Shown: one piece after another, positions 1 through 31,404 of the stretch
How the letters are laid out: every line of letters starts with the position of its first letter
Numbering within the stretch: the stretch's first letter is position 1
NCBI GenBank assembly: GCA_003568945.1
Contig: BDIP01000091.1
Location: 1-32,094 of the forward strand
Reading direction: 5' to 3'
DNA length: 32,094 nucleotides
Source of the DNA: Kipferlia bialata
Taxonomy: Eukaryota
Notes under the pieces: generated by a model
Told to the model about the DNA's origin: nothing
Databases searched by the model: none
The model's input: only the letters and a program-made list of their open reading frames with translations
Translations under genes and position numbers: made by a program

Positions 1-135
1 CTCCCCCCTCCCCCTCCCCCCCCCCCCCCCCCCCCCCCCCCCCCGCGCCATACCCACCCATACCACATACTCAAAACTCATATTTGTGTGTCTATTCCTA
101 GTAATTATTCTGCTTGATTCCTCTCTCACCATCAG

Positions 136-1154
136 GACTGGTGCAAGAACCTTGACACTAACCTTGTGGTGACCAAGATCATCCTGCAGGTATGTGCATC
201 AGTGCTGTTCTGAGAGGATAACAGTGAATCATACATACATCGTTGAAGACTGGAATCACTGTCACTTCCTTCTCTTGATAGTATCACTGTTATCCATCTG
301 ACCCCCAGGGCGTTGACTTCTTTGGCAAGACCATCCCTCTCTCTCTCTCTCTACATATATGATACACTGTGTCCCCACTAGGCCTAATATCCTCTCTCCT
401 CTCTTTAATCACAGGGTGTCGACTTCTTTGGCAAGACCAGGGTCGGCTTTGCCAAGATGAAGGTGGAGGCCACAAGCAAGTACGTAGACATTAATTAGTA
501 GATGGTTGCCACTTCCTCCTGTCTCCATACACTGGTGTTCTTACCCTCAGGATCTCTGGCTCCCGTGTCCCAGGCATTGTGTTCCTCAGGTGAGTATATC
601 TGTAGTATTATACGTGTATATGTATGTGCACGGAATCCCCCTCCCCCCACTCATCGTGTTTCTCAGGTGAGTGTTCTGTGTAAGCATGGAATCCCCCCCC
701 TCCCCCCTTTCGTTTCCATCCATTCACTGTATACTAGTAGTAGCAGATACCCCATATCTACATGTCTCATTCCAGGGGAGGTGCGGTCGTCGCCCTTGTC
801 ATCTTCAAGTGTGAGGGAGAGGAGTACGCCCTGGTGTGCAAGCAGGTATCAGACTAACATTTCTCCCTTCTCTCATTATACCTCCTGTGTCTTTTTATTA
901 CGTATTATTGTATACTGTGTCCTAACCCCCAGGCCCGTGTCCCCATTGGCTATGCCTCCTATTATACTATATATATGCTTATTTATATAATATATTGATG
1001 TATTATTATATTTATATATACTGTTTATGTGTGCCTCATTATTGTGTAGAATATATATTCTTACCCCCAGGCCCGTGTCCCCATTGGCTATGCCTCTTCT
1101 CTTGAGATCCCAGCTGGCATGCTCGATGGAGAGGGCCACTTCATGGTATATTCA

Positions 1155-1197
<43 letters not shown>

Positions 1198-2738
1198 GTA
1201 TGCTCGATGGAGAGGGCCACTTCATGGTATGTATAATGTCTCTCTCTCTCTCTCTCTCTTTATGTAATATGTGTATAATAACATAAGGGTGTAGCCGTCA
1301 AGGAGCTCCAGGAGGAGACTGGCCTTGAGATCCCCCCCTCTGAGCTGATTGACATGACCCACCTGGTGTACGGACACAAGGAGGGGACTGGTCACCCAAG
1401 CACATACAGGTATAAGTGTATATACTATAGAGTAGTGTATCTGAGCTGATTGACATGACCCACCTGGTATACGGACACAAGNNNNNNNNNNNNNNNNNNN
1501 NNNNNNNNNNNNNNNNNNNNNNNNNNNNNNNNNNNNNNNNNNNNNNNNNNNNNNNNNNNNNNNNNNNNNNNNNNNNNNNNNNNNNNNNNNNNNNNNNNNN
1601 NNNNNNNNCCCACCTGGTGTATGGACACAAGGAGGGGCAGGGTCACCCCTCTACTTACAGGTATATACTGTATGCACTATAGTTCATATATGAGTATTGA
1701 CATGACCCACCTTGTATATGGACACAAGGAGGGGATTGGTCACCCCTCTACTTACAGGTATAGACTATATACTGTATGTATACTACGTGGTATACGGACA
1801 CAAGGAGGGGCAGGGTCACCCTTCCACATACAGGTAGATACTCTAGAGTATATATATGTACATCAGTATAGTATATATATTTGTATATATATACATGGTA
1901 TTCGGACACAAGGAGGGCACCGGTCACCCATCGACATACAGGTATATACTATATACTCTTTGTATATACACTGTATATATGTATACTTGCAGAACACTAC
2001 ATGGTATACGGACACAAGGAAGGACAGGGTCACCCTTCCACATACAGGTTCCTTCCCTCAGTTTCTGAACCCATATACATTTTTTTATCTTGACTCTCTC
2101 TTACTCCTAGGGGTGTGTGCCCCTCTGGCGGTGGGTGTGACGAGTTCCTGAGGTTCTTCCTGCACAGGACAACGGTCACCAAGGAGGTCATCGAGACACT
2201 CAGGTACGATACTCTCTCTCTCTCTCTGTGTCTCTCTCCTAGTTGCATAAAGGGTTTAGTTAGACCTAGGAGGTCATCGAGACACTCAGGTGGGATACTC
2301 TCCCTCCCTCTCTCTCTCTCTCTTACATTAGGGGTTCAGTCAAGGGCGAGGATGCCCATGAGCACATCACCCTGGACGTCCTGCCCCTTATAGACCTGGT
2401 GGCAGAGTCACCTAACGCAGGGTTAGTGTATATACATAAGTGTATACACACACACACACACATATGTATGTCACCCAACGCAGGGTTAGTTTATATATAT
2501 ACCTATATGTATATACACACACACACATATATATATATGTATATACAGAATTGAGATGTTCTGCCCCTGATCGACCTGGTGGCAGAGTCACCCAACGCAG
2601 GGTGAGTGCATGTATAGAGATAATGTCCTGTCTATTATCTGTATTGTGTATAATTCTGTGTCTAACTCTAGATCTGTCATTGCCTACGGTCTCTACAGGC
2701 ACCTCCTGGACACCGGCAAGCTGCCCAAGGAGTACTAG
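136..2738 (+). CDS. NUDX14: Nudix hydrolase, plant NUDX14 / ADP-sugar pyrophosphatase-like; 9 exons visible, N-terminus upstream of the window
   Basis: GT-AG exons 136-189, 415-479, 551-589, 776-845, 1071-1145, 1288-1409, 2111-2203, 2332-2421 and 2672-2738 splice in frame: DWCKNLDTNLVVTKIILQ GVDFFGKTRVGFAKMKVEATSK ISGSRVPGIVFLR GGAVVALVIFKCEGEEYALVCKQ ARVPIGYASSLEIPAGMLDGEGHFM GVAVKELQEETGLEIPPSELIDMT...GVCPSGGGCDEFLRFF...KLPKEY*. Contains a Nudix box (GMLDGEGHFMGVAVKELQEETGL). The GVD.FG, VPGIVF, E.PAGMLD and GGCDE motifs match the AtNUDX14 family as I recall it. Confidence 0.92.
1440..2047 (+). repeat. Intronic array of 5-6 diverged copies of the 3' end of Nudix exon 6 with its donor site
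   Basis: Copies at 1440-1481 (cut by the gap), 1609-1660, 1696-1757, 1785-1833, 1893-1941 and 1999-2047. Each complete copy ends TACAG|GT like the live exon end at 1409, and the copies are separated by TA-rich spacers. Confidence 0.95.
1482..1608. other. Assembly gap (127 N)
   Basis: Run of N inside the exon-end repeat array. Confidence 1.
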
Positions 2739-2895
2739 AGTACAAGTGTAGTAAATTGAGATGGTTTCTTGCAATGTTGACTTGTACTATAGGATACACT
2801 TTAGTGTGGCTAATCTGCCCAAGGAGTACTAGAGTGGTGCAAATGTAGTAAATAGAGAAGATTTCATGCATGTTGACTTGTACTTTAGGATACAT
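2721..2895 (+). repeat. ~94 bp tandem duplication of the Nudix stop codon and 3' flank
   Basis: ctgcccaaggagtactagagt...atgttgacttgtact.taggataca begins at both 2721 and 2815. Confidence 0.9.
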
Positions 2896-2990
2896 ATTGC
2901 TGTGGCTTATGGTACCATTAACTATTTCTCTACTGCACCCAACAGCCATGATGACTGGTTATATTCCACTATTTCTCGTATAGTTATAGT

Positions 2991-5900
2991 CTATTTCTCT
3001 AGTGCATCCAACAGCCTCGTAATCACTGGAATCGGCATGGAGGAGGGTATTCCCAGGGCGGCCAGGGCCTCTCTCCCGTCCCTCCCCTTGCCCCTGCCCC
3101 TCTTCCCCTTGGCACCTCTAGTACCTCTGGTCAGTGTCAGTGTCTGTGACTGGGGTCTAAGTACCCGGATGAGGTCTCTCCTCTCCTCAGCTGAGGCAAC
3201 CAGAATGGGCGACATACCCTGGGGTGAGCCATCTTTGGAGTATGATTTTAGTTCATGAAATATTGCAATAATAATAATGTACCTGCCGGGTGCAGCAACA
3301 GGAGGTTGCAATAGCAACTATAACATACAAGCATGACAGAGAGTGAAAATGAAAAAGGGCACACTCCAGAGAGCAATAGAAACCTTAAGGAGTCTCCGAC
3401 CTGGTCATTGTATCCACATTGATTACACACAGATATATATATATCACCTGAGTCAGTGGCAGGGCCCGTGATGTGTGGGTGCCTAACTCTGTGCCCAGCC
3501 TCTTGGCAAGGACCTAAGGGGTCAGTATCAGCATTAGTATATATACACTCAGACTCTATAATTCTGTGCCCAGTCTCTTGGCAAGGACCTGGGGGGTGAG
3601 GCACAGACACATACTATGGACAGTATAGCTCCACACCTGTCATGTATGCAATATACAACAGATGATATATTCAATATGGTATCATTACCTGGCATGCCGC
3701 GTGTGCCGCAGCCCTGTCCCTGGTGGCAGCAGCTACCAGGGCATCAGTGGCCTGGAGGTAAGGGAGGTGGCATATAGGACATTACTCAATGTGAGTAAAG
3801 AAGTGCAGTAGAGTAGCGTAGTAGTATAGCAGCTACCAGGGCATCAGTGGCCTGGGGGGTCATATATATAGAGAGATCACAATTATGCGGCGTATAAATA
3901 GTAAATGTCGTGCCTTGCTGTCGAGTCTGTCCAGCAGAGCACTCTGCAGTGCTATGCCCACTGAGGATGTGGAGAGAGAGGCGCCCCGGCCAAGAACCTA
4001 GAGATGAGTACTTATCGTGCTGCATATATCGATATCATATATGCACATACACACCAGCGACATGGCTGCTGAGAATGTGTATATATATACAGTATGCACG
4101 TACCTGTGACATGACTGCTGCATAGTCCTGGGCCACTGCATCGCACAGTGCCTCTGCTGCATCCATGGAGGGCCTAGGCACCTCGTCCTCCTCATCCTCC
4201 CCACCAACCTAAGTATCAGTATCAGTATATATATATCGCTATCTAATATCATTGTTTTTACTCTTATTATATACTGATGCTGATACCCACCAACCTTAGG
4301 GGAGGGCACGGTGTGTGTCCGCCGCCTCCTCCGACCGATGGTGGTGAGTGCAGCTATCCTATCCCAGGCCCTGGGTGTCAGTATCATAGTATACATGTAT
4401 AAATATATACACTGTACTGTACCTGGCTACAATGGCGTACGGCCCTGGGAATCAGTACCACAACTAGAACACAGACGCTCATATATATACATATAAAATA
4501 CACATTCTTCAAAGGATACAGTGTAGTAATACTTGCATAATACTATACCTGGCCACTATGGCGTCTGCACACTTTGCCACCACACTCTCGAGTGACTGAC
4601 TCCATGCATCCCTGGCCTCAGACAGGGCAGGGCAGACACCACCCGTACACCCCACACCCCTGGCAGTGAGACTTTCAAACATGAATATAGAACGAATACT
4701 TCTATATCTTTGAACCCCTACCTGGCAGCGATGTCAACCTCATCCAGCCAGGCGTCGATGAAGGATACAACGCCCTGGGGTCAACATCGATACACTATGT
4801 ATAATATAATTCATACCCATACCTGAGCCGATGACACCAATAGTGCCGTGTCGTGTGGGAACACTGAGCTGAGGGTGCCCTGTCTCAGAGCAGATATGGT
4901 GGCTGTGCCTAGTGTCAGTGTCAATGTCAATCAATCTACCTCTATGTATCAGTATCTCTACCTAGATGCACAGACACAAAGGAGTCGAAGCGAGACCGCA
5001 CAGCCAGCAAGGGAGGAGCCGCTGCCTCTGACACATAGACCCTGTGCTCGGGGGAGGAGGGGGCAAAGAGCTGCGCCCTGGAGTCAGATGGAAAGACAAT
5101 ACTTGTAAAGAATAGGTAAAGTACTACACACTGTGATACATGGTACTGATACTGGAGGGGGCAAACAGCTGGGCTCTAGTGTCAGAGAGGGAGACATTTG
5201 TAAACATGAGACAATATATCAGGATTAACAAAGAATAATAATAAAAGAGAAGAGAGAACTATACAAGTAAAAAGACTTCTCACACTACTCTCACCTCCTC
5301 ATTGCCCTGTCCACCCTCTGAGTGACGATTATATATTTACAACACATATACTACTATATATATATAACCATACTCTGGTACCTTCTCATCGCCCTGTCCA
5401 CCCTCTGCATGCACCCGTGTGCCACGCGACACACGCCACTCTCTCCCTCTCTCTCTCTCTCGTTGGCGGTGTCACTGGTCATCGCCTCCCAAGGTGCTCC
5501 CCCGTTGAGGTCTCTGTTGACACTCACAGTAGAGGCCTGGCAGTCATACCTAGAGGTTAGGATATTCATTGCGTAATTATGGAAACATCGCGTAAATATA
5601 GGTACCTCGCGATCCGCTTGACCAGGCCGAGTAGGGACACCACCGAGCGTGACTGGGAGGGCCAGTCTCTGTCTATGCCACTGGTCATAGAGACGGAGGA
5701 GGCACGGTCAGACATCAAATCCCGCCCACTCTCACTGTAGGTACTGTAGGTACTCCCAACGCGTGGTGTCTCTCTCTTCGATGTGTGGTGCCTACCCCCC
5801 TTGACAGCATCGACCACAGCGCATAGCTCTGTCGCCAGCCTCTGTCTGACATGGTTCAGGAGTCTCTCTCTGCCACACCCAGAGGCCTCACCTAGGGAGA

Positions 5901-7961
5901 GGGGGAGAGAGAGAGAGGGTGCAGAGGGGGTGAACATGGCATCCCCGGTCAGTGCATTGAACACTGCACACAGGGTGTCAGCAGAGTCAGAGGAGAGTAA
6001 CACACTGCCAGTGACACTAGAGGGAGTAGTGGTAGGAGTAGTACCCTCCATAGGAGTATCCCCAGCCCTTTCCGTCTCCGAAGCCTGCTCTCTCTCTCCT
6101 AGGACAGAGAGTAGTGCTAGGGCGTCTCTGTGTGCCGCCCCTGTCTGTGCACTGAGGCCACTGATGACAGACAGGGGAGAGGCAACAGGGAGGGAGGAAC
6201 GGTGCTTGGACGCAAGCCTAGAGGTCAGACACTCAATAAATGTTTCACAATATTCAGATATATGCACTAACCTTGCGAGGTGTCCCTTTGACAGTGCCTC
6301 CTGACTGTGACTGGTGCCAGAGAGAGAGGGAGAGGGGGAGGGGGAGGAGCCTCTAACAGAGGGTGACATGAGAGCAGAGGAGGGGGCCTCACTCCCTGTG
6401 CCTGTGCCGGACCAGAGGGTGGACGTGCCAATATGAATGGCAGAGGCAGCAACGGCCCAGCCCTGCAGAGCCATATAGAGCACCCTGGCAAGATCTCCAC
6501 TCCCTTCACTCCCTCCAGTTCCTCCAGTCTCTCTCTCTCCGTCACCAGGTGGTGATAGGAGTCTCTCCAGCAGCACCCCCATCCTGACACCCCTACCCAT
6601 CAGAGGGCAGAGTCTGTCCAATGCGGCATCGTGCACTGCAACTACTCCTGCCGCTGCACCCTTGCCCATGCCTAGGAGGGTCAGAGTCAGTGTCAGAATA
6701 TAGAACAATATACATTAGATATAGGAGTGTCAGTGTCAGTATATAGTACATTATATGATATATAAGATACTGATACTGATACCTAGCAGAGGCGGGAAGA
6801 CCCTCCTCCTCACAGCACCCAGGGCAGGCACAACGGCATCAACGCAGGGGAGACCGGCCTCCTGGCGCATCCTACAGTCAGCACATTTATATACATATAG
6901 AAAGAGAAAGAGAGTGTGTGGGTGTATGGATAAACTGCTGTACCTGACCCCACACATGAGACATGCTGCCAGGTGGGTGAGGGAGAGGACAGCAGGTGAT
7001 GGGGCAGAGTCAGGGTCCACGGTGGAGAGACGGTCACTCAGCCACTCTGGGGCCACGAGTACGTCTCGTAGTGAGGGTGGGGCTGAAACAACAAGAGAGA
7101 GAGAAGAAGAACGAGAGAGAGAGGGGGGGGGTGATACCTGTTGGCACTCCACTCCTACTTGTCCACTTAAGTACTAGAGAGGGAGAGAGAGAGAGGAAGA
7201 GAGAGAGAGACACACACCTGTTGGCACCCCATTCCTACTGGCAGCCTTGAGTGCTGCACTGGTGGCTGTGTCACATGCAGTGAGGGTGGTGTCACACATG
7301 GCATCCCGCATGGCACTAACATCGCTGGAGCCAGGGAGGACAGAGGAGGGGAGGCATGGGGTGAGAGAAGGGGAATATACAGTGGTAGTGAGTAATAGAG
7401 AGAGGGAGAGAGAGGGTAAGGAAGGGGGGGGGGGGGGGACTAGTATATAAGTCTAAGAGAGGCGAGTCCATACCTAGTCTGAGCCTGTACCCCTCCAGCA
7501 CCACTGCATCTTGCACCAGAGTGGCAAGAGTGTCTGCACATGTTAGACCATGACCTAGGGCAGAGGGCAGGGATGACAGGGAGGGGAGATACGCATCACC
7601 GCTGGGTCCCAGTGCCACAGTGTCACAGAGGGTGGAGAGGTCAGACCTGGGGTGGGGATGTGTCACTGAACAGTATATACACATATACACTCGTCACTCT
7701 AACGTACATGGCCTCCAGCAACCCCAGGTGTGCCTCGACTATCTGGCCTGCCCTGCTCGGGTCGTCCAGTCTGGCCCTGTGCGGCACCTCACATACACCA
7801 GAGACACTAGTACCACTAGTACCACTAGATGACGTCACTCCTCCACTTGTACGTGCACCCTCAGAGGCACAGTCCATGGCACACCGGATACCACGCCTGG
7901 CATCCGCTATCTCGGCATCCACAGCATCCAGCTGGGCTGCCAGGTCCGTACCTGACGCCAT
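2991..7961 (-). CDS. Large multi-exon hypothetical protein, predicted helical, no family recognised
   Basis: ATG at 7961 (MASGTDLAAQLDAVDAEIADARRGIRC). A chain of GT-AG exons follows, including a ~1 kb exon inside ORF 5566-6708, QRVDRAMRR|AQLFAPSSPEHRV, LSEARDAWSQSLESVVAKCADAIVAR|AWDRIAALTT, VGGEDEEDEVPRPS and VLAKRLGTELG. The last exon ends ITRLLDALEK* at 2991. Not every internal junction was resolved. Confidence 0.75.
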
Positions 7962-8212
7962 GCCAGTGGCAAGGGGATAGAAGAGAGAGAGAGAGGCAAA
8001 CGAGATGTCATATGTCACCAACCCTTTCACTCCGAATCGCAACAAACTCTCTTGCCACATATATATTGATGTTAGCTGAATGTAACGCAATGACATGCCA
8101 TTCAATGATACACTTCAAGTAACGATTGCCAACCCCTGCTCTTGGGGAGCAAGAATGGACAACCGAAGACTAGAAATGCATAATGCCGCCATATACACCA
8201 TTTCATGTGATC

Positions 8213-8888
8213 TCAAACACGCTTGAATGGTGGGAGTGTCTCTGCACTGTACCAGCCCTGGAAGTGTCTCCTGCCGATGCCGGCTAGACGCAGCAGGGTA
8301 GACTTCTCAGCCGTACTTAGGCAAGAGGGGACACTCTCAGCATCCTCCACCCCCTTGTCTGCCTCTGCGACCAGCTGAGTAGCAGTGGTCATCACCTGTG
8401 GGGTCAGATACTGTACGACATAATAATTGAATAGAGTGTGTATTCATAGAGAGTATATAGAGAGTAAATAGAAGTGGAAAGCGATGGGAGAGTGACAAGA
8501 GAACACTGTAACTCCAGAGAGTTCGTACCTCGTTGAGTGGAGCACGGAATACGACACAGGTGTCTGGGGTCTCACAACGGATACCCTAGTGGTGAGAATA
8601 TAAGAGTTGCAAAGGGCGAAAGAGAGAGAGAGAGAGAGAGAGTCCTAGCAGAGAGAGTGTATGATACCTCTGTCATATCCATGAATGTCTTCCTCTCTCC
8701 ATAGAGGACAGCCAGGGTGTACCCCTCCTTGAGGGTGGGGGCAAGGCGCTTCAGAGACCTGGGATAAGGAGAGCAACAGTATGGGGGGGGGGGGGGGGTT
8801 GTGGAGACCAAAAAAAAAAAAAAGCCAATATTACGTACATATAAATATATCTTTGCTAACAGATTGACTATGAAGGGTACTGAGCCAT
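8213..8888 (-). CDS. Small hypothetical protein (~110 aa, 3-4 exons)
   Basis: In-frame exons SLKRLAPTLKEGYTLAVLYGERKTFMDMTE (from 8758) | GIRCETPDTCVVFRAPLNE | VMTTATQLVAEADKG...TLPPFKRV* (8395-8213). The start at 8888 via an 8-nt first exon is tentative. Confidence 0.55.
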
Positions 8889-8984
8889 TTTCCTCTGCAC
8901 TATAGTATATAGGGTGTCACTATCCTTCATATGTGAGTGTCAGACCTTCATTGACTTCCTTTGACCACTAGTATCTGTCCCGCA

Positions 8985-9515
8985 ATGTCAGATGACTGGC
9001 TGGAGGAGAGTCTGTCTGAACCAGAGACCCACCCTCAGAAGAGGGATGCTGACACACATGAAGAGGGAAGGGTGGACCTGGAGATGAGACAGGTGATTGT
9101 GAGGGAGGAATTGGAGGAGAGGCATCAAGAGACTCTGTCACGTACCAAAGCAGCACTGCAGGAGGAACATGATACCAAGATGCAGCTCGTCGAGGAGTAT
9201 CAGCAGAGACAGATAGAGGAGTATGCGGCTACCTCTACTGGGAATAGTAGACCCTGTGGCACATGTGGGGCCATGTGTACGGATACCTCCTTCTTGCTCT
9301 GCCCCCGGTGCCACCTGCGTCACTGCACCTCACACACTGACAGCATAACTACGTGTTTAGTCTGCAACACGACATACTGTGGGGAGTGCTGGCAGGGGAT
9401 GGAGCCATGCTCTACCTGCAGAACAGTGCACTGCTGCAATGGGGAGCAGACACCCTCCGGTGCTAACATTGCGGGAGACTCTGTACCAGACACCCATGAG
9501 TGCTGGTATGGCTAA
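8985..9515 (+). CDS. Intronless protein: acidic coiled coil followed by a Cys/His-rich putative zinc-binding region
   Basis: ATG at 8985 (MSDDWLEESL). An E/Q/R-rich helix is followed by CGTC, CPRC, HCTSH, CLVC, CGEC and CSTC pairs. AATAAA (9514-9519) overlaps the TAA stop. Confidence 0.75.
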   Translation: MSDDWLEESLSEPETHPQKRDADTHEEGRVDLEMRQVIVREELEERHQETLSRTKAALQEEHDTKMQLVEEYQQRQIEEYAATSTGNSRPCGTCGAMCTDTSFLLCPRCHLRHCTSHTDSITTCLVCNTTYCGECWQGMEPCSTCRTVHCCNGEQTPSGANIAGDSVPDTHECWYG

Positions 9516-10531
9516 TAAAACTCTTTGAATATCCGTGACACAGATAGATTGATATTCGGCGAGTAATCCCAACTCATAATGAGTGAGTCAGTTCCTATCA
9601 GAATACCCATTTTATATATACACCCCACTCTCAACATATGTGGCACATCCGTCTCGCATCGCTCCCGATTCAAGGTGTTGGTTTTCAAGGTGTTGGTTTC
9701 TGCGGGCTGTATAGACCCTCAGTAACAGCCTATTGTTTTTGTCATGAAAGGGTTCTTATTTGTGAGAACATCGTGACAACCACTCTCTAGAGAGAAGTTA
9801 GGGACGCCTTCCGACTCATCCTGGGCACTATAGCAGCTACGACAAACTAGCGCTACCAGTGCCATGCCCTGTGAGGAGGCTCAGAGGCCAGTGGCAGGAG
9901 TGAAGGGTGGGAGGGGGTCGACATGTCAGACAGGTATGACACTCACACTATGAGAGCTGTATCAATTCATGTACGTTGTGCTTCCTCACACAGGTCATCA
10001 TAACATCAGTACTATGATTCACATACTATTTGGCTGTTGTTGGTCCTTCTACCCTGTCTGTGGTGTGTAACTGACAGCGTGTGATGCGTATGTCACGTTG
10101 TCACCCAACATGTCACCCCAGGCATTGGTCATGACGTGTCACAGTTTATGACTGTTAGAGCCCAGCTCCCCTCTCTCTACTCAATCACGTCGGTTCCATG
10201 TCTCGAGGTAACTAGCTGTGTGTGTAAGTATACGATATGTTCCTTTGACTACTATGTTGGATGCCCTCTACAGTTGTCATGCTGACAAGCACTTGACAAC
10301 CACTTGACGAGTACTTGACAAGTTCTGTGGCTGTCAAAACCCACACACAACTGTTCAGATCTCTGCTTTGATGGCACTCCCACACCCAGCTTACCCCTGC
10401 TGCATGCCGTGGCAAGTGCCGCCACATACACCTGACACCTATGGTATGGGATGTACTGGGATACTACATATCTCGCTGCCTCCTTCATTCTGTTGAGCAT
10501 AATATGACATGATTAGCAACATAGATACTCC

Positions 10532-12959
10532 ATGGTGACCTTATATCAGGAGAGAGAGCAGTTCAACGAAGACAGACGGAGAGAGAGGAGAGCGAGGCAG
10601 AGAAGAGAGAGAGACGCCATCGAGAGAGAGTCAGTCGCTGATAGGATTGAGCGCAACCGTCGTCTCTTGGAGCAAGAAAGATTGATGCGGAGACAGTGTA
10701 GAGGGGCTTCAAACCCTTGGGCCTCTTCCATGAGCACTTATCCTATCGGCGCCCTGGAATCACGAGTGATGGGTGCCGTATACGCCTCATCCCACTACAA
10801 CATCGACACATCACGTTCTGTTGATACCATCCCCCTCACCAGCCCTCCCCCTCAGAGTTTTACTAGCACTGCAGAGTGTGAGAGTGTGTATCCTCATACG
10901 TACACGGCAGATGAGACCAGTGGTGGCTGCTCTCTATGGCAGTACCATCTGATGCACCTCTATTACCAGGAAAGAGAGGAGAATGGGGGGAGTGCCACAC
11001 CATCTGAGGTCTATGAGCACATCGGTGTAAACCCAGGCACTCAGGTACAGTTACGCCTCTATTGGATCATTCGTCAGTATATATACTGTTGTGTTTGTTC
11101 CTATAGTAGGTAGTGCTGTATTTATATGACGTCAGGATCCTCCTTTTGATGCCAAAATGGGCCCTGCATGTGGTCCAGGCACTGACCCAAAGATACACCG
11201 TCGCTCGGGCATGTGGATGTCTGAGGCAGATCCCTACGAGGACTATCTCTCTACAGACTACGCCCTGGTACCCAAGCGGAAAACAAGGTTGGTTGCAGCG
11301 CATTAATCCAAGTATCCGAATGCTGTATGATTACATCTGTGCAGTACCCTATGGCACTTACGTATACCATACTGACAGACACTCTCTATAGAATGCTTCT
11401 CACACCAGGTTGAGAAGAGGGAGAGGACAGAGAAAGAGATCCACACAACAGTGGGAGGGATTCACCCCTTCCACTACCGTAAAGGTTGGTATCTATATGG
11501 CACGTACAACCGGCACCGTGCTACTTGAATCTGACCAGTCGATGTATGATCTGTCACATATCTCTTGCCTACCACTGCCTACACTTGATATGACACCAGG
11601 TGCCCAAGGTGCTTCTGCCCACCCTAGTGGGAAGAGGGGGAAGGGCCATACAGCACATGGACCACAAGGCCATGAACTGTACAGTGCAGGTGAGGGGTGG
11701 TGGCGCACGACGCCCATTATTCCTCTAAGAGCATGTACTACAGTGCCCGACTAGAGTCTTTAGCTACCACACTATGTTGCAGTAGTACTCTTACCACCAG
11801 ATAACGGAGACTCTGAATGGCCATGGCACCGCAACTAGTAACTCTACCAGTGCCACACTTTCCATATCGGGTATGTATAAAGTCATAACACTTAGTGTTG
11901 AAGACTCACTTGTTGTCATATCTGACAGATAACACAGGACCTTCCCTGGTCAACGGCCTTAATGTAGTGGCACAGAAGCTGGAGTGGATAGTGGTGAGTA
12001 CCCCTGGTGTCTCAGTCATCCTTGTCACAAGTACTGAACGTGTCACACTTCATGCACTGTCTAGTCAGCATTCGAGATACTTGCCGCTATGCCGTCATTC
12101 TTCTGTAAGACCATTGGTATTGCTGACAGATAGAAGTCAGACTACTATGCTACCAAGAGGGCAGAGCAGGCGGCTGCCCGTGTCATGTTGGATGCACTAC
12201 AAAGCAAAAGAGACGAAGTGGAGGTGAGGGTTTGGGGTATACATGCCGTAGTATCGTATACACAATTTCACTTCAGTCCAAGCAAGCCCAGTTTGCACCC
12301 AACTGGTCGGCAATGCAGCAGGTTGGTGCACCATTCAGAGACCTATGCACATATCATACTCGTCACATGCGATAGACGTACGAGTTGTGAGGCTTACCCC
12401 CAGCGCACTACAGCAACCCTGATACCGACTCTCCAGAGACGCTATATGAGGAGGTGTCACAAAGACATCGAGGTAAGTGCATGATACAATCTGGTGTGAA
12501 GGGCCTTTGAGTAAACTCTGGTCGCTGTGTCAAGCATGCAGGAACACCATAGACTCCATTCCATATCTCTTTCATTAACCCAACCCCCAGGTCTACCGTG
12601 CTGTGACCCTGGGTTTCCTAAGGGACTCCCTACATAATGTGGGAGTTACAACACACTGGTAAGTGGCGGTTATCACCACTTTCTTATCAACTGAGAGGAG
12701 ACACTAAAAGCTTGTCCGTTCACGGCGACACACGTACATGAGAAATCAAGTATCGAGAAGTTGTATAGTATGCATACTAATTTTAAAGAAAATCATATAC
12801 ATACATATATTCTACCATGCTGACCCCAGTGAGGAGAGAGCCAGGGAGAGGGATTGCATGCACCACCTCAAGCAGTTACAGAGGTCAAGTGCCAAGGACA
12901 TACTGAGGTGGAGAGCAGATTATTGCATCACATATATATTGAGAATACCTCCCAGATAA
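10532..12959 (+). CDS. Multi-exon protein with an Arg/Glu-rich N-terminal helix and a KH-type RNA-binding domain
   Basis: Exon 1 is 10532-11044. Later exons give DPPFDAKMG..., ...TPSTTVK|VPKVLLPTLVGRGGRAIQHMDHKAMNCTVQ (11600-11689)|ITETL...ATLSIS|GPSLVNGLNVVAQKL. This has the KH GxxG loop in the expected beta-alpha-alpha-beta-beta-alpha order. The 3' exons and the stop are approximate. Confidence 0.65.
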
Positions 12960-13034
12960 TCTCCAGAAGAGGCCCATTAATTCTAAATCACCTTTACATG
13001 CTATAAGGTGCCCCTCTTTCCTCACCCCCCAGAC

Positions 13035-21438: not shown

Positions 21439-21481
<43 letters not shown>

Positions 21482-21902: not shown

Positions 21903-24900
21903 TTACTCACTAGACTCTAGCACACTCTCCAGCATATCCCTGATGGCTATCCCAAAGAACTCATACCCGTAGATGATGTGGGGGATGGTCAGAAGGTTGG
22001 GTTTGGCGTCAATTCGTCTCCTCATCCAGTCCCCCTTCTCCCTCTCTCTCTCTAGATACTGCTCTACTAGAGGTCTTCTGGACTCAGGTTTTGTCCATAC
22101 CCACTGAGTGTCACTATCTCCATGGACATGTTCCTCCCTAGCATGTGCAGTGGGTCGCTCATACTCTAGGTAGGCAGGAAGGACACTCAGGATGATGTCC
22201 GGAGTTGGTAAGGCAAGTGCACAGTGTAGATATGCACCAACATGTCCATGAATAGAAGTGGAAGCGCCGCAGTGTATGGCCACCACTCTGTTCAGGGACC
22301 TCAGCATAAGGGGGCAGTGTACCCCTCCAATGGGGTTGTAGGACACACCGAATGGTAGTGGCTCTCCCATGAGGTCGTCACTCTCCTCAGTGAGACACTC
22401 ACTCTCACTATCAGGGTGTGGGAGGGACTGCCTTGTACTCCCCAGCATCACTGCAGGTGTGTATCCCCCTAGTCCAACTAGAGAGGGTGCAACCATAGAG
22501 GGCAGACACATGCCCGGGTACGAGGGGAGTGACTCTGGTATGCTCAACAAGCACGGTTCGAAGTGCCTGGTTGAGATGTCCCCCTGACAAGCCAGGCTGT
22601 TACACCACTGGGAACCAAACAGATACGCTAGTGAGACTGTTACATGGCTAGTGTCACCGAGTCTCGCTGGCCGCTCCCCTTTGATGCGCTGATACTTGGC
22701 GATTGCGATGGACAGCCGGGTAGCAAGGGTGTTTGCCACACACTCTACAAACAGAGAGTCAGGTACCTCTAGACTGGGGTCTGCCGCTAGTGCCACTAGG
22801 CGATGGAAGGTGTCTACAAAGGGGGCCCATACTCTCACTGTTGACGGGGGATAGGAGTATGTGTTCCTCGTCACAGCCGTGTCCCGCTGCTTCCGCTGTG
22901 TCGTGCCTGGCAGTAAGGTATTGCAGTTAATTACTAATAGAAACAACACACTACAGTAATACACTACCACATCCCTTTACCTCATCAGCAATGCTGATTT
23001 AGCATATAGTCTGTTGATTCAAACCTCACCTGGCAACGACTGAGAGACTACGTACTGGTAGGGCCAGTGCTAACAGTCGTGGGTACTGCTGGGGAAGTGA
23101 TGTGAGTCGGTCCATGTAGCACCCCCCCTTGGCGGAGTCGGGAGAGAGCAGTGCCCCGGGGGGTGGCTGCATGTAGGATGATATCTGATAGCCAGAGAGG
23201 GACATGTGGGTGAGCAGATCCTGGTCCCACTCTACACTGTCGGGTCTCAGTGGATGTACACTCCAGTCAAATGGCCCTTCGTCTCCATCTTGTACATGCC
23301 TACTATATGCTTCCATGACAGAGACCATGGTCCTAGGGTGTCCACAGCACCTGAGCAGAGCAGCCACAGCACGAGGCATATCCTCTCTAGGGACCTCGCA
23401 TCTCTCACCCCCTGGGCTGGGTGTGTACCCCTGTGCCGCAAATGCACGAACTGCAGAGACCTTGGTGATCCCATGTATGTAGTAGTCCACTGGTATGATG
23501 GGTGCATTCCCAGAGTCCCACATCTTGGCGGCGTCATCCCTGCATCTATGTGAGATATATACTACTATTACTCTTATACAGATTATTACTATCAATACTT
23601 ACGTACATTCCCATGGTAGTCAATGCGAAGGAGTCTCCCTCCCACCGTCTCAGCATGTGTTCTCCTCCCTGTAATATCAGTATCAATATAAGTATTGTAT
23701 GTATACATTGTATATATTCAAATTGAGGTATATCAAGAGATGGTTACAGGATCAGTAAAACACAGAGTCACATATGTAGTCGACATATATATATTTGTAT
23801 TCTATGCATACCTTCAGTGTGGCCCTTGGATCTGCCATGAAGTCGTGGATGTAGATTATGTATGGTATGTGGCTGCACTTGGCCCATGGATGCTTTCGCA
23901 TCAGAGAGAGCGCTGTAGCGTCATCTGGGTACATTGCCATGACGGCAGTCATGTTATGGGCGAGTACAGCAGGATCCTCTCTGTCTGTGTACAGTCCACT
24001 CTCTGTTGGATATGACAGACACACAGGCATGTGCGGGGTTGGAGTGTACTCTGTTCGCCCTATCTGGAGAACACGATGACGTTGAAAGAGAAAGTGTCTC
24101 CTCTCCATCTCCCACAAGAATGTGTCGTACATGGAAGGACAGGTCTGCTGCACGATAGACCTGTATATGTGGTCGGTGTCTGTGTGCTTGGCTATGTTGA
24201 CAGAGCGCCCAGAGAGATGTATGTACATGAGGAAGTAGACATGGCTCCTAGCGTGACTTAGCCTCACTGCACGTTCTCTGAGATTGTGCGGGTCAGTCCT
24301 CTGCCAAGATTGAGGTGTGTAGTGGTGCGAGACCCTCTCTATAACAGCCTCCAGGAAGCCCTTCCTTAGGAGTACGGTGTCCAGTACACCACATGCAAAC
24401 TCTGCCTTACCAGAGCCAGGAGTACACTGTGTACTACACAGTCTTGTCACCCCTCCGAACTCCGGCCAGTCTAAGGGCCAGACCACAAGTGTATGTCACT
24501 ACGAGTGTGTCCATACCAAGGAGGGGGCGCCTCCGCTGACCGTTGAAGGGGGGCAGCGTGTTTGCATGGAGTGCTGCTTTGGTCCAAGCCTTGTAGGTGA
24601 GATGTGGATTCGATATACAATGGTCGTATATCATAGTGTCTTGTACCCAGAGATTGGCATGTACTACTCCGTGAGGTCTCTCACCTATACACACACATAT
24701 ACACATATCATTGCATGTACATATATACACACCTCGTATGATCTCTCAGCCTCAGCCTCTGCACTGAGCTCCTGTATCAATGCCAGAGAGTCAGTCAGAG
24801 AGTGAATGCCTCTAGACAGACACTCACTCTTAGGTAGTAACACACACGGCACACACATGGGTGCATACTGTACCCACCCCTCCTCCCCCACACACTCAGC

Positions 24901-26868
24901 TGGGTCGAAGCGCCTCAGGGGGGTGAGGCAGGGGTCTAGCTCCAGTTCAGTGTGGAGAGGTATGTCAGGCACAGGGTAGATGCCGACAACAGGTACACCG
25001 ACCAGTACTATATCACCAGCCGCGGGTGACTCTTTTGGCTTGAACCCCCTACACAGCTTGTTGCGTGTGTCACTTAGGTAGCAAGGGTCCCCTCTCTCGA
25101 GTCTTGCGAAGAGGAGCTCTCTATCCTTCATTGAGGGGAGAGCACCCGTGTATAGCTCTCCACGCACTGAGCTCGTCGTAGTGGGTAGGGCAGACTGTGG
25201 CAAGTCACAGTGTGACAAGTCAGAGAGTGCGTAACTGTCCTCTGCCAGTCTAGTGGAGTAGTGCCAGTGTGTCATGCTGTCAATGCTAGAGAGGGCAGGG
25301 ATATCCTAGGATCAAAGACGTATAGTGTATATATCATAAGTAATGGTATTTACATACTAAAGAATATGGTACGGTTTATGGTATATGGTCCATACAGTGA
25401 CTGGTAGAGAGGGCAGGGATATCCTAAGGGGGTGAGAGACTATATAGTAGACAGTATATATATATATATTATATAGTATATATTATATGGTATATAGTAT
25501 ATAGTATATAGTATATGGAGAGGGCAGGGATATCCTAAGGGGGTGAGAGGTGTATGATGTATAATGTGTTATATGTAGGACGTACCATATTGTATACAGT
25601 ATGCAATATATTATTCATTTGCCAATATATAGTGTATAGAATATTTCATATCATATTGTCAATGATATGCCCTTCTCTATTCCGATCCGCAATAGACTGA
25701 TACCTCAGTATAACCAAATGCCTGCACTTTGTAGCCGGCGGCTGGTGCGGCTATGTTTCGGATAGTGCGGATGCCACTGGTATTAATACTCAATGATAGA
25801 ATGAGAATGGATTACTTCTCATTCTTTCATTACTTTGTTATTTGTACTTAGTGTTAACAGTATTCAATATCACTGGACTCCTGGGGGGGGAGATGGGAGG
25901 TAACGTGGTATGTGCCACTCATTGCATAGTATATACCTAAGGAGTTTCTGTGTCACCTCCCCGTCGTACCTGTTAATACATATTGATGCACATATTACAC
26001 TGTGTAAATGTATAAATGTATATGATACAAATATTATTCACTGAATACCTAATGAACAGGTGTGTCACCTCCCCGTCATACATGTTGATACACATACCTA
26101 AACATATTACATTGTGTATATATGTAATATATACATTGTATATGATGTGTAATATATACCTGATGAACAGCTGTGTCACCTCCCCATCATACATGTTGTG
26201 CTTCACACACACTGTCACAAGGGACTGACCCGATGCAGAGTAGGGGTAGAGGGGGCAGACCTAATAGTGAATGTATGTATACTATATATGATATATACTA
26301 TGTACAATATATATCAATACACAAACTATATGTACTGACCCGATGCAGAATAGGGAGAGAGGGGACATACCTGGGGTCAGTATTAGAACCAATACAGTAG
26401 CTAGTGAATATGAGAAGAGAGAGAGTGGCAGCTGTCCGCTACGACAGTTGTATAGGTGCATGTAGATACAAGTATACGGAGAGAGGCACTAGAGACAGGC
26501 CAGAGGTAGTATCTGGGTAGAGACAGCAGAGTTAGAGTGTGTGGGACAATACATAGAGAGAGAGATATGATACGCGGAGACTCCTGGGAGATCTATATTA
26601 TAGGAAGAGATAGGAGGAGAGGACAGGTCTTGCGTGACCTTAGATTGACAAATACACATACTTACTCACACACACTTATATCAATGTATAGTATATCTAT
26701 ATTGTGATACATATTGGACAGATATACTTTGAATATGTAGATGTGCACCACATCACCATGCAGTGCCAGGGTGGTGGGGGGGCAGATCAAAGACAGAATT
26801 AGCAACAAGTATACCTGCAGGGGATCTTCAAGAGTGGTGGCTGGGACTTGAGAGACATCTACTTCCAT
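21903..26868 (-). CDS. Large protein with a degenerate P-loop NTPase domain, Crinkler/RHS(CR)-like layout
   Basis: Tentative ATG at 26868 (MEVDVSQVPATTLEDPLQ|). Exons join in frame: YDGEVTQKLLR|SPVILNTVNTN|GIRTIRNIAAP...GYTE|DIPALSSIDSMTHW...ERSYE|AWTKAAL...RPLL|DWPEFGGVTRLCSTQCTPGSGKAEF (Walker A-like), then IIYIHDF (Walker B-like) and CCGHPR (GxP/GHPR helical motif). The last exon ends LESVLESSE* at 21903. Confidence 0.75.
25937..26192 (-). repeat. Triplicated 33-nt exon; two copies have lost the AG acceptor
   Basis: 25937-25969 (aacAG|), 26049-26081 (aacAT|) and 26160-26192 (aacAT|). All end AG|GTAT, with ~112 bp spacing. Confidence 0.9.
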
Positions 26869-27269: not shown

Positions 27270-30200
27270 CTAGGCCCTCTGCCCCAGGTATGTATCTACT
27301 GGGACGACAGGCACTCCAAGGGCAGAGGCAACAGGGGGGAAGGCTAGGGGTATTAGATATGGCACACATATATACATGTATACTATATATATATAGGGAA
27401 CATCTCTATGTGAGGACAGGTACTCCAAGGGCAACAGGGGGGAAAGCTAGGTGATTAGACATCGACTGATAAGCATGCATATGCAGTTGTGGCTGTCAAG
27501 CAACATAATGGGGAACAAGATGGTATACAGGCGTGACTATTGACGTTCGTGTATGCATATATATATGTATATATGTATGTATGTGTTTAAAATGTGCAGT
27601 AACTTACAGTATGTTTACCAGGCACCAGCCAAAGAAGTATGGTAAGTAGTCGTTCTGAAAGATAGTATGCAATGTAGACATGCACTGAAGATGAACACTA
27701 ATAGCATACCGAGGAAGTAGCCCATCTCGTCCTGCAGTCTCTCTCTCTTGGCCTGTGAGTGCTTCAGCTCACGGACCTAGATTGTCAGTGTCAGTAGTAC
27801 TATAAGACGAGAGAGGGAACAAGGACATGTGGTAAGATATCCATAATGAGATCTTCTCACCTTCTTCTGGTACCTCTCGACCTGTGTCACTGCCTCTGTC
27901 TTCTGATCCTCTCTCCTCATCCTGGGATGAAGGTGGAGTATACTGCATATAGTAGTCATTATTCAATTAATATGTATATAGGGCTTCCCGAAGCAAACGG
28001 TCGCTATGATCATGTCAGATACTACAATGTGATACCTTGGGTTCTTGGCTGCTACCTCAGCCACAAGGACATCATACTCTGCGCACTCAATGTCAGAGTC
28101 TGAGACAGTGGGAGTGGCCTGGGGGTTAATGATACTTCCAATATATTAAGCCATATCCAATCGCTGTCTACAATGTATATGTATTACATAGTAAACGTAC
28201 GCCGCACATACATATGTGTACATACACACACACATATATATATATATTTAAGTATGTATATGCAGATCTATACATATACGTATATGAGTATATACACCCA
28301 CCTTGTACTCCTCCAGCCGCTGCAGTCCCTGCTTCTGCAGAGGTGCCAGCTTGGCAAGTGTCTTTAGGAGAGAATCACTCTGGTCCCGCACCCTCTCCCA
28401 CTCAGTCATGTTCACCCCACGCTGTGAGTGGTTGTTGCAGGTCCCTCCTCTTACACCTATACAGTGCTGGATGCGGTCACAGCATGCAATGAGAGGGGTC
28501 GCCAGACGCAGTACCCCCCTCACATCATCGTTGTAGTCCTCCACCACGACGTACTTGACCTTGTCGGGGAGGGAGAGACTCATAGTGTCACGGGGGAGGG
28601 GGATGAGGCCAATGCTGTCGAGGCTAGCCACTAGCCCCTGAGCCTCAACGATAGAGGACGGTGCCTCGGAATGGTCACGCTGAGAAATGAAGGCCTGACG
28701 TAAACATTTGACTCTGCCAGTCTAAAACTATACGCTAGAGGACTAATACCTGCAGAGAGGCGTGGAACTCCGTGCAGAGACCGGACAGCGAGGCGACCAG
28801 GGCTCCGCAGTCCTCCGAGACCACCTAGGGGGTTAGAAGTGGGAGAGAGAGCAATGCACTAAAAATGGAGAGGAGGTGGGGGTTTGGAGGTGGTGTATTT
28901 GAAATGTAGTGGATAGTGTACCTTCTCCAGTGTGTGCTCAGACATGAATGTCTGAAGGGCTGCCAGCTGAAAGGTGAAACATTATGGGGGGGAGGTATAG
29001 TAGGTGGACCATACTACATTGTGAGGTTGTGTTATCCAAATAATCACGTTGGTATAGGGGTACAAAATGTACCCCATTACCAAACATACATGCCCCTCAA
29101 TCACACTCTGTCTCTATGACATAGTCATATCTCATGTAAACACTATAGCAACCATATAGAAGCCACACTCATATGGATACACAAAACAATTAGTACACAT
29201 ACAGCCTTCTCCTGAAGGCCTGTCCCTCTGGATACCTCGCTCTCTCTCACTCTACATATATATATAGATGTGTGTACTTGTTACCGTCTTCTGGAGGGCG
29301 GTCTCTCTCTCTATATATACATAATGTATACGTATATATATATATATGCACATGCAACAAGCTACCTTCTCCTGGAGGGCTGTCTGACTGCATGCCTCCA
29401 GGGAATCCAGAGCAGAGGACAGGGCTGGAGGGTAAGTGATGACAGTATACCAATCTGTAAATGCCTATTGTACCCCATATACCCTATAATTAATATAGTC
29501 TATATAAACATATACTATATGTTATATGTGTACATCCTGTAAACAGGGGCGAGTGAGGGACTGACCCAATTCACAACACCATAATATTATGCCTACTCAG
29601 CATCCAGTCCCGACTCTAGGAATGAATGAACAGTCATTACCCATACTCCAGTGTATCTATATAGTATATACGGTATGAGTCACACATACCCTCGATATCC
29701 ATGGCCTTGACCCTCTCCGTGAGAGCCTTTACTCTCTCACTGGGAGTGAGAGGCATACTACTAATGTATATTTCCGTACTATCATAGTGGACATACATAC
29801 CGTAGAGAGGGTATATATACTATTATATACAACAGCTCTATGCAGGTACCTCATCTCTGGGTTGAAGTGTGCAAAGTGCTGCATCGGTGTCTGTTCCTCA
29901 GCCTATGGGTCAGACTATACTACATAGTATAAGGATACAGTGTATCAGTATCTCAGTATGATATGTTGTGTATCATTCACAAAATATGGATACTGTTCCT
30001 CAGCCTATGGGTCAGACTCTACTACATCTGGATAAGGATACACTACATAAGGATATGTATACTAATACTGATACTTATTCAACAACATTATACATATATA
30101 TACATGGAGAGACATACATTAGAAGGCGAGAATACAAATATATGGATACAGATATATACATACATACATATATATATATATGTGTATATACCTGAGAGGC

Positions 30201-31404
30201 ACGCTGTACGAGAGACAAATGAGAGGGCGAGTGAGGAGCTACATAAAGATCTATATACATTATATATATACATATATATACATATGTATGTATATATATA
30301 CAAACCTCAGAGGCACTCTGTATGAGCGACATATGAGAGGGCGAGTGAGGACCTATACATAGATACATATGCACTATATACACATATATATATACATACC
30401 TCAGAGGCACCCTCTCTCTCTGGTTAGAAGGCGAGAGTTCATATATTATATATATAAGAGGTATATATATAATATATAATATACATATGTATACATATAC
30501 CTCAGCACCCTCTCTCTTGGGGTCACTGCACTCTGCAGAGATGGATGCACACTCTGCCAGAGTATCTGTCTCCTGTTCCCCTGCAAGTCTGCGGGTTACA
30601 TCATCGTGAAAGAGGGCGTCCAGCTCCTCTTTCAGAGCCTCCTCGTTGGGACCCTCACAGTCGCTGAGACGGAATGGACTTATGGGCCGAGGTCTTGACT
30701 TGTGACGGCCCTCCTCAGTAGCTACCTTCCTAGCCGCACTCTGAGTGGGAAGGCCATCAAGAGAGAGGCCACCCCATCTGGTGTCGTCCTCGATGAGGGC
30801 CTCAATCTTCTCAATGAAACTATCGCTGAGGATGGCATCAAGCTCATCGATAGGGGTAGAGAGGGAAAATGGGACAGCACCCTTCTTCTCGCTGTGAGGC
30901 AGAGAGCGAGGCCCGGTGGCAGTCTCTGGCGAGGGAGGGACTGTTACACCAGTGACATCAGTGACACCACTAGCAGTGGTGGTAATGCTGGGAATGAATC
31001 CCTCACGGGCCCTGGTCCTCTTGACCTCGGCCTCGTAACGGGCCAGGTGCTCTCTGGCCACAGAGTTGGTGACACGGATGTGGTGCTTTCTACACTCCCT
31101 GGTGGATAAGACAACAAATATAGAGTATTTGTGTGAACACAGTGTATTATATACTGAGTATAAATGCCCGACTACAATGCTGTATCGCACTGGAGGACAG
31201 TATGATTATCCTACATTCTCATTCCAGTATATATACATACTACTGGCTATATTACTATGTAGAGTATCATACATATACCGTATAGTATAGTGGGTGATAG
31301 TAGGAGAGTGCATACTATCAATAATGTACACAGTACCTGGTGTGTGTCACCAGCTCAGTGGTAGGGATCAGTTCACTGCAGAACATGCACTGGATAGGTT
31401 CCAT
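27270..31404 (-). CDS. Multi-exon protein: N-terminal C2HC (UBZ/TRAF-like) zinc finger, low-complexity linker, helical C-terminal half
   Basis: ATG at 31404, MEPIQCMFCSELIPTTELVTHTR|ECRKHH (CxxC-x11-H-x3-C). Further exons: ...KREGAE|AEEQTPMQHF..., ALSSALDSLEACSQTALQEK|LAALQTFMSEHTLEK|VVSEDCG...|AFISQRD...LEEYK|ATPTVSD...|VRELKHSQAKRERLQDEMG, ending AFPPVASALGVPVVPVDTYLGQRA* at 27270. Confidence 0.75.

What the first reader, a model, noticed from the sequence alone, without database searches (positions are those of the whole stretch)
1288..2047. 5-6 echoes of Nudix exon 6 keep GHKEG-x-GHPSTYR despite heavy codon turnover
Live exon followed by the five complete copies: Ser is AGC, TCT, TCT, TCC, TCG, TCC; Pro is CCA, CCC, CCC, CCT, CCA, CCT; Thr is ACA/ACT; Gly is GGG/GGC/GGA; Tyr is TAC/TAT. 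AGC<->TCN needs two base changes. Replacements concentrate at one site (T/Q/I) in a segment that is poorly conserved relative to plant NUDX14. Away from the 5' edges of the copies, decay is slight: one extra G in 1785-1833 and one Y>F in 1893-1941. At least six distinct versions are more than a diploid can supply, which argues for serial capture over time rather than a two-haplotype artefact. The copies have donors but no evident acceptors, so they are not ordinary cassette exons.
Basis: partly seen in the sequence, partly recalled or inferred. Interest (0 to 1): 0.85.

Follow-up and report, generated by a model that had tools for sequence, protein, structure and literature searches.

The report
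Introns storing pieces of other alleles
An intron of a Nudix gene in the protist Kipferlia holds a real tandem row of spliced-out copies of the preceding exon's end that differ almost only at silent sites, as do copies in many neighbouring introns; they are likely scraps of other alleles left by recombination, which would make one genome a record of its species' hidden diversity.

Summary
The array is real. A DNA contig bridges four copies and the next exon with no differences, and the RNA contig skips them all. Reads imply at least nine copies, not six. The gene is Kipferlia bialata KIPB_000742.

The feature is not special to this exon. Echoes of exon edges, on both donor and acceptor sides, lie in 17 of 38 introns of four genes (control 1 of 1018) and behind 3 of 3 stop codons. 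Outside exon 6, in genes A and B, 15 of 15 differences are synonymous, where a neutral self-copy predicts about 23 replacements. Genes C and D are weaker (7 silent, 8 replacement). Window 8-24 kb has no echoes. The copies are mosaic and show no gradient with position.

Best reading (0.62): the echoes are pieces of strongly diverged alleles, left by recombination at coding/non-coding edges and expanded by unequal exchange. No second allele was seen. My paper searches found no description. The scan noted one loosely similar single case in a sea urchin.

The parts
137..2738 (+). Gene A: Nudix hydrolase KIPB_000742 (ADP-sugar/ADP-ribose pyrophosphatase-like), 9 exons in the window, 5' part outside it
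   Evidence: RNA joints; PF00293, 36.6 bits vs cut-off 21.1
1288..1409 (+). Live exon 6 (Nudix box plus variable loop); its donor is the one used
   Evidence: RNA contig joins 1409 to 2111 with 0 other letters
1410..2110 (+). Intron 6 (701 nt as assembled, longer in truth) holding the echo array
1440..1481 (+). Echo E1, cut by the N gap; reads imply two E1-type units
   Evidence: record 4; loose end behind 1481
1482..1608 (.). Assembly gap of 127 N hiding further echo sequence
1609..1660 (+). Echo E2 (Q type) plus GT donor
1696..1757 (+). Echo E3 (I, one change from the live T codon) plus GT donor
   Evidence: bridged by record 5
1785..1833 (+). Echo E4 (Q type) plus GT donor
1893..1941 (+). 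Echo E5 (T type, Y>F) plus GT donor
1999..2047 (+). Echo E6 (Q type), degraded donor
309..333 (+). Acceptor-side echo of exon 2 (2 differences, both synonymous)
652..666 (+). Donor-side echo of exon 3 (2 synonymous differences)
933..958 (+). Acceptor-side echo of exon 5 (identical)
1200..1226 (+). Donor-side echo of exon 5 (identical exon part, intron flank 20/25)
2268..2289 (+). Donor-side echo of exon 7 (identical)
2470..2484 (+). Donor-side echo of exon 8, near copy (1 synonymous difference)
2555..2601 (+). Donor-side echo of exon 8, far copy (5 differences, all synonymous)
2815..2832 (+). Echo of gene A's stop-codon end
2922..2947 (-). Echo of gene B's stop-codon end (2 replacement differences)
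2991..7961 (-). Gene B (KIPB_000743), with echoes at 3559-3588, 3828-3851, 4423-4438, 5154-5175 and 5295-5320 (9 differences untrimmed, all synonymous)
24732..26868 (-). Gene D (first 5 exons, my model), with echoes at 26334-26370, 26049-26087, 25937-25974, 25518-25534 and about 25405-25423
   Evidence: frames inferred from open reading and GT-AG only
27270..31404 (-). Gene C (12 exons, my model), with echoes at 29993-30004, 29285-29304, 29206-29238, 27430-27446 and a stop-codon echo near 27219
   Evidence: frames inferred from open reading and GT-AG only

Best explanation
The copies are real, spliced-out duplicates of an exon's edge whose coding letters likely came from other, strongly diverged alleles of the same gene, likely through recombinational repair that can pair only in coding sequence. 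Shown: tandem arrangement, exclusion from the assembled mRNA, near-pure synonymous divergence, mosaicism, and occurrence at donor, acceptor and stop-codon edges. Inferred step 1: the population is hyperdiverse (silent divergence about 0.2-0.35, introns barely alignable), so homologs pair only in exons. Inferred step 2: a break in a TA-rich intron is repaired from the homolog; the unpaired intron tail primes out of register in the opened exon and copies the other allele's exon end with its splice site. Alternatively, an existing self-copy or the live end is later overwritten from another allele; I cannot separate these. Inferred step 3: a copy with only one splice site is not defined as an exon, so it is skipped and nearly neutral. 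Inferred step 4: once copies exist, unequal exchange expands and shuffles them, making this intron a hot spot. Echoes are young compared with allele divergence, so they have decayed little.
For: DNA record 5 runs without differences through E3-E6 into exon 7. Listed DNA pieces have depths of 395-513, none at half depth. RNA depth is 0 in all six bins from 1446 to 2039. Echoes lie in 17 of 38 introns against 1 of 1018 non-cognate pairs, behind 3 of 3 stop ends and at 0 of 3 start edges. Genes A+B without exon 6: 12 echoes, 281 nt, 15 of 15 differences synonymous (pS 0.21, pN 0; 0 of 20,000 permutations); a neutral self-copy expects 22.6 replacements, P 1.5e-10. Intron flanks of echo and live copy are only 67% alike against a 59% background: the profile of an allele pair, not of a decaying duplicate. 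Three or four states at several third positions and 5 of 6 four-gamete pairs need several donors and recombination. Gapped echoes in gene C differ from the live exon by 3 and 6 nt, in frame (frames inferred). Context: metamonads lack NHEJ and fornicates have Dmc1 in place of Rad51A (PMC8516963, section read); Dmc1 tolerates mismatches (PMC8682777, abstract); in a hypervariable fungus crossovers fall in exons and silent diversity reaches 0.20 (PMC4209137 and PMC4576712, abstracts).
Against: No donor allele was seen. The DNA and RNA contigs show one allele for the other exons of gene A (contigs drop variants; both runs are one sample), the next-best of the 120 listed proteins is at most 49% identical, and two metagenome scans were empty. 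Hyperdiversity of K. bialata is therefore inferred only from the echoes. Genes C+D give 7 synonymous and 8 replacement changes (P 0.088). 7 of 26 echoes are identical to the live exon after trimming, as a plain self-copy would be. The pattern is patchy, with 0 hits in 8-24 kb, and the four genes were chosen where echoes were visible. Nine or more copies with little decay need a high event rate. The repair geometry is a hypothesis with no direct test here.
Confidence: 0.62

Rival explanations
1. The echoes are silent gene-conversion cassettes. They are copied back into the live exon often enough that selection removes their replacement mutations, so they act as a stored allele bank.
For: Silent partial copies lie next to the expressed exon and are mosaic. 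pN/pS is 0.06 in exon 6 and 0.09 over all 26 echoes. Several identical exon parts sit beside diverged intron flanks.
Against: Conversion frequent enough to expose echo mutations to selection should also erase silent divergence of 0.2-0.37 (inference). Variation is silent rather than diversifying. One hidden copy appears to carry a stop codon at the T/Q site, and distal echoes in genes C and D have decayed. No converted live exon is seen in the reads.
Confidence: 0.12
2. The donors were not present-day alleles but homeologs or paralogs from past hybridisation or polyploidy, since lost, and the echoes are scars of that phase.
For: It explains allele-like divergence with only one copy visible today.
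Against: Four Ser codon states and three Pro and Gly states at third positions need more than two parental types. Many echoes are identical or barely decayed, which implies a continuing process.
Confidence: 0.1
3. Serial self-capture: each copy is a snapshot of this exon at an earlier time and has decayed neutrally since.
For: 7 of 26 echoes are identical to the live exon. Distal copies in genes C and D are more decayed than proximal ones. Unit duplications inside the array are implied by reads.
Against: Expected replacements are 33.7 against 4 seen for exon 6, and 66.6 against 12 overall. There is no gradient with position, and T and Q types alternate.
Confidence: 0.05
4. The echoes are sometimes used in mRNA, through rare splicing or trans-splicing, and so stay under protein selection.
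For: Most keep a good GT donor. RNA contigs can drop minor forms (tool caveat).
Against: No RNA cover over 1446-2039. Read-through from the live exon meets a stop within 14 codons, and the nearest AG before E4 and E5 is 23 nt off with no consistent acceptor. Echoes of stop-codon ends have no splice role.
Confidence: 0.05
5. Assembly artefact: haplotypes, mixed strains or paralogous Nudix loci were concatenated.
For: There is an N gap inside the array. A K. bialata genome is described as diploid from k-mer peaks (PMC5874029). The DNA run may be the window's own source, so it is not an independent sample, and no long reads were seen.
Against: A separate contig set reproduces the spacer-to-echo junctions: record 5 (1683-2205) and record 1 (60-954, containing two other echoes and the start of a third) have 0 differences at full depth. 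The assembly under-counts the copies rather than inflating them. The exon-6 peptide found only its own protein (1 candidate).
Confidence: 0.04

Closest known systems
Internal (partial) gene duplication and intron gain by tandem duplication (Gao and Lynch 2009, seen only as a reference entry in PMC2809761, content recalled; PMC2809761 passages; PMC4974935 listing)
   Same: Short head-to-tail duplications that include a splice site inside a gene.
   Different: Here the copies lie inside an intron that is spliced as one piece, they recur in many introns and at stop codons, and they differ from the live exon almost only at silent sites.
Tandem exon duplication and mutually exclusive exons (e.g. 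SCN-alpha exon 5a/5b, 10.1101/2025.08.16.670673, listing only)
   Same: Neighbouring exon-like copies with coding-type conservation.
   Different: The echoes are partial, carry one splice site only, lack the Nudix box and are absent from the assembled mRNA.
Exon-confined recombination in hypervariable Schizophyllum commune (PMC4209137, PMC4576712; abstracts)
   Same: Silent divergence near 0.2, and recombination that can start only in conserved exons: the setting the best explanation needs.
   Different: Those abstracts concern crossovers between measured alleles and mention no intronic exon-edge copies. In Kipferlia the diversity is inferred, not measured.
Silent gene-conversion cassettes such as Borrelia vls or chicken Ig pseudogenes (recalled, no call)
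   Same: Silent partial copies in tandem beside an expressed sequence, with mosaic relationships.
   Different: Those diversify the protein at one dedicated locus; here the variation is synonymous and affects ordinary genes.
Host protein: ADP-sugar/ADP-ribose pyrophosphatase-type Nudix hydrolases (NUDT5, AdpRase; homologs named 'ADP-sugar diphosphatase' and 'nudix hydrolase 14')
   Same: PF00293 above cut-off; fold match E 4.7e-11, TM 0.66 to ADP-ribose diphosphatase; 39-49% identity to listed homologs.
   Different: Residues 131-140 are a lineage-specific loop; the substrate is untested.

Membership tests
Mutually exclusive / tandem duplicated exons | Whole exon copy with both acceptor and donor | tested here: not met
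   Copies cover 49-62 of 122 nt and have no consistent acceptor
Mutually exclusive / tandem duplicated exons | Copies appear in mRNA | tested here: not met
   RNA depth 0 from 1446 to 2039; joint 1409 to 2111 (contigs can drop rare forms)
Internal gene duplication (junction-spanning tandem duplication) | Direct head-to-tail repeat of part of the same gene | tested here: met
Internal gene duplication (junction-spanning tandem duplication) | Dead copy starts identical to its source and decays at all codon positions | tested here: not met
   15 of 15 differences synonymous in genes A+B without exon 6; P 1.5e-10; genes C+D inconclusive (P 0.088)
Intron gain by tandem duplication | The duplication creates a new intron absent from close relatives | not testable with these tools
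   No close relative or second isolate found
Gene-conversion cassette system (features recalled) | Silent partial copies next to an expressed locus | tested here: met
Gene-conversion cassette system (features recalled) | Cassettes differ mainly at amino-acid level | tested here: not met
   pN/pS 0.06 for exon 6
Gene-conversion cassette system (features recalled) | Transfer from cassette to expressed locus is observed | tested here: inconclusive
   One live form in DNA and RNA contigs; contigs drop rare variants
Haplotype or paralog mis-assembly | Variants on separate, reduced-depth contigs, not bridged in tandem | tested here: not met
   Record 5 bridges E3-E6 at depth 494; flanks 395-513
Nudix hydrolase (host gene) | PF00293 domain with Nudix box | tested here: met
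   36.6 bits vs cut-off 21.1; E107, E110 and E111 invariant in 106 sequences
Nudix hydrolase (host gene) | ADP-sugar hydrolysis | not testable with these tools
   Names of homologs and fold match only

The most novel reading that the evidence does not exclude
Kipferlia, which lacks NHEJ and repairs breaks with Dmc1 alone, keeps a genome-wide bank of exon ends from former alleles inside its introns. The copies are swapped back into live exons often enough to stay codon-clean, giving ordinary genes a heritable store of allelic variation within one otherwise uniform locus.
Probability: 0.12. Interest if true: 0.92.

Novelty: new variant of a known kind. Interest (0 to 1): 0.74.

Why it matters
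If the echoes are allele fragments, a single assembly would reveal silent diversity of about 0.2-0.35 in a free-living fornicate, at or above the highest value in the abstracts I read (0.20), and would show past outcrossing in it. The echoes would give a countable footprint of how homologs recombine when introns no longer align, in a lineage without NHEJ or Rad51A. They would account for much of the intron length in the affected genes. They also give a natural test of exon definition, since near-perfect decoy donors and acceptors are skipped. The central test is cheap: the same count over the roughly 125,000 annotated introns, plus one more isolate.

Tried and rejected
No whole genome was held, so no genome-wide count was possible. 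Read support was obtained only for 60-3000; gene models C and D have no RNA check and gene B rests on its annotation.

Searches for a second allele or close relative: the best 120 of 603 protein hits were listed and none but the gene itself exceeds 49% identity; the metagenome pattern scan gave 0; the metagenome protein scan gave 76 pattern matches, 0 confirmed. No run on record as RNA was listed; X2 is a guess by the tool, though its contig is spliced. A sequence search of the PDB gave 0 hits and NCBIfam 0.

Position-versus-divergence test: no trend. A directional GC3 decay explanation: 19 GC>AT against 11 AT>GC synonymous changes, a lean but not one-way. In-frame use of echo donors is blocked by a stop. 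The association of echoes with long introns (17 of 22 at 128 nt or more, 0 of 16 at 114 nt or less) is partly circular, since an echo adds length. Untrimmed alignments give 51 synonymous and 27 replacement codon changes; trimming to a 5-nt exact inner edge gives 41 and 12. Both are reported because the edges overshoot.

Literature searches listed no paper whose title or abstract start describes this. The library lacks most subscription papers, and I read no supplements.

Full report
IDENTITY. The exon-6 peptide retrieves one protein, labelled Kipferlia bialata KIPB_000742, 224 aa. My nine-exon model (137-2738, + strand) translates to it. It is a Nudix hydrolase (PF00293) whose predicted fold (mean pLDDT 89.9) matches ADP-ribose pyrophosphatases. 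No whole genome was held. A K. bialata genome paper (PMC5874029; parts 1-2 of 6 and term passages read) reports 124,912 introns and diploidy from k-mer peaks; its main text has 0 occurrences of 'duplicat', 'heterozyg' or 'polymorph'.

Six partial copies of the 3' end of exon 1288-1409 follow it in the intron, one cut by an N gap. The codon lists are right; the 'extra G' is not there. For the five complete copies, trimmed alignments give 19 synonymous and 4 replacement codon changes, all four at the T/Q/I codon (pS 0.37, pN 0.02). That codon lies in a loop that is gapped in most of 119 homologs and predicted as a low-confidence coil, so a T/Q polymorphism is plausible there.

READS (two runs of one sample, contigs only; 16 of 36 pieces listed). 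The RNA-type contig (739 nt, 0 other letters) joins 1409 to 2111 and gives no depth from 1446 to 2039, so the first donor is used. DNA record 5 matches 1683-2205 with no differences and continues to 2433, bridging E3-E6 and exons 7-8. Record 1 matches 60-954 without differences across two further echoes. Listed pieces have depths of 395-513, with none at half depth. Variant contigs at full depth show more copies than the assembly. Record 4 is an echo with silent Gly and Ser changes, followed by a spacer that differs from the live exon's spacer at one listed site and by the start of another echo; this implies a doubled E1 unit. Record 6 loops from 1836 back to 1678 and carries a second E3-E4 unit, in which the T/Q codon reads as a stop. 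I infer at least nine copies. The DNA run may be the window's own source, so it tests the assembly, not the sample.

IT IS NOT SPECIAL TO EXON 6. I modelled four genes: A (RNA joints), B (annotated protein P0121 mapped exactly), and C and D (my models, open frames with GT-AG). A junction-anchored search found 26 echoes in 17 of 38 introns (A 7 of 8, B 4 of 15, C 3 of 11, D 3 of 4), against 1 of 1018 non-cognate exon-intron pairs. Both kinds occur: exon end plus donor downstream, and acceptor plus exon start upstream. All 3 genes with a stop codon in view have an echo of the stop end; 0 of 3 start edges do. The unit is therefore a coding/non-coding edge rather than a splice signal. These genes were chosen where repeats were visible. 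A model-free scan gave 152, 0, 0 and 38 repeat pairs in the four 8-kb blocks, so the habit is patchy. Echo-bearing introns are richer in TATA/ATAT (p 0.012).

THE COPIES LOOK LIKE ALLELES. In genes A and B without exon 6 (12 echoes, 281 nt), 15 of 15 differences are synonymous third-position changes; 0 of 20,000 permutations that keep the substitution types reached this (null mean 0.43). A dead self-copy should collect replacements at half the silent divergence: 22.6 expected against 0 seen, 33.7 against 4 for exon 6, and 66.6 against 12 overall. The intron flanks next to echo and live exon are only 67% alike, close to the 59% background. Replacement sites near 0-2%, silent sites at 21-37% and introns close to saturation make up the profile of two alleles or close orthologs. 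The differences must have arisen while both sequences were coding. Against this: genes C and D give 7 synonymous and 8 replacement changes (P 0.088; third-position excess P 0.021), their distal echoes are decayed, and 7 of 26 echoes are identical to the live exon.

SEVERAL DONORS, SHUFFLED. Among the live exon and E2-E6, pairwise differences are 2-10 of 44 nt, distance to the live exon is flat (9, 8, 7, 7, 9), T and Q types alternate, and 5 of 6 informative site pairs show four gametes. Four Ser, three Pro and three Gly third-position states exceed what two haplotypes supply.

MECHANISM (inferred). Fornicates lack Ku and DNA-PKcs and have lost Rad51A while keeping two Dmc1 paralogs (PMC8516963, passages and section 8). 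Dmc1 tolerates mismatches (PMC8682777, abstract). In hypervariable Schizophyllum, crossovers fall in conserved exons and silent diversity reaches 0.20 (abstracts). In such a setting a break in an intron can find homology only in the neighbouring exon of the homolog. An unclipped intron tail that primes out of register in the opened exon would copy the other allele's exon edge into the intron; the mirror event gives acceptor echoes, and the same logic covers stop codons. Overwriting of an older self-copy, or of the live end, from another allele gives the same signature, and I cannot separate these. Copies with a single splice site escape exon definition. Duplications inside exons or of whole exons would be purged and those inside introns go unseen, so edge copies are the survivors. 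Unequal exchange then expands arrays, as the doubled units suggest. Confidence 0.62. The main weakness is that no donor allele was observed.

NOVELTY. Partial internal duplications are known (PMC2809761 passages). Eight searches listed nothing describing recurrent exon-edge echoes with silent-only divergence, and the Kipferlia passages of PMC6679479 concern spliceosome content only. The library is incomplete and no supplements were read. The scan's notes held nothing for this genome and one single dead exon-end copy in a sea urchin (unchecked; empty). I rate the finding a new variant of a known kind, interest 0.74: real, statistically strong, unexplained by ordinary duplication and directly testable, but shown for one window only and with the allele source inferred.

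Noticed in passing
window 4423-4448 (- strand): An acceptor echo of one exon abuts a donor echo of the previous exon, forming a 22-nt AG..GT pseudo-exon: the trace of a whole-intron duplication. It is absent from the annotated protein.
   Followed up: partly
window 4286-4296 and 4200-4210 (- strand): Annotated intron 12 of gene B begins with the same 9 letters as the next exon, followed by a donor-like motif; possible intron sliding or gain by duplication.
   Followed up: no
window 7136-7159 and 7216-7239 (- strand): Donor echo of an exon that the annotation of KIPB_000743 omits (one silent and one replacement change in the frame I infer); the annotation seems to skip exons in the 409-nt and 352-nt introns.
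   Followed up: partly
window 30190-30430 (- strand): Three or four echoes of gene C exon 2's end inside a 114-nt tandem repeat; the nearest differs from the live end by a 3-nt insertion. Not in the ungapped counts.
   Followed up: partly
window 8000-24000: A 16-kb block with intron-containing genes but no echoes at all, in sharp contrast to both flanks; unexplained.
   Followed up: partly
window 13580-16972 (- strand): Open frame of 1130 codons with a short collagen-like repeat (below cut-off) and a DUF7932 match (29.7 bits vs cut-off 27); collagen-like and proline-rich pieces continue to about 18100.
   Followed up: no
window 2264-2289 (+): The exon-7 echo is preceded by an AG and followed by GT, a potential 20-nt micro-exon, yet the RNA contig runs from exon 7 to exon 8 without it.
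   Followed up: yes
window 1399-1401: The live exon alone has Ser AGC; all window copies and the hidden copy have TCN, so the two-base switch lies on the live allele's lineage.
   Followed up: partly
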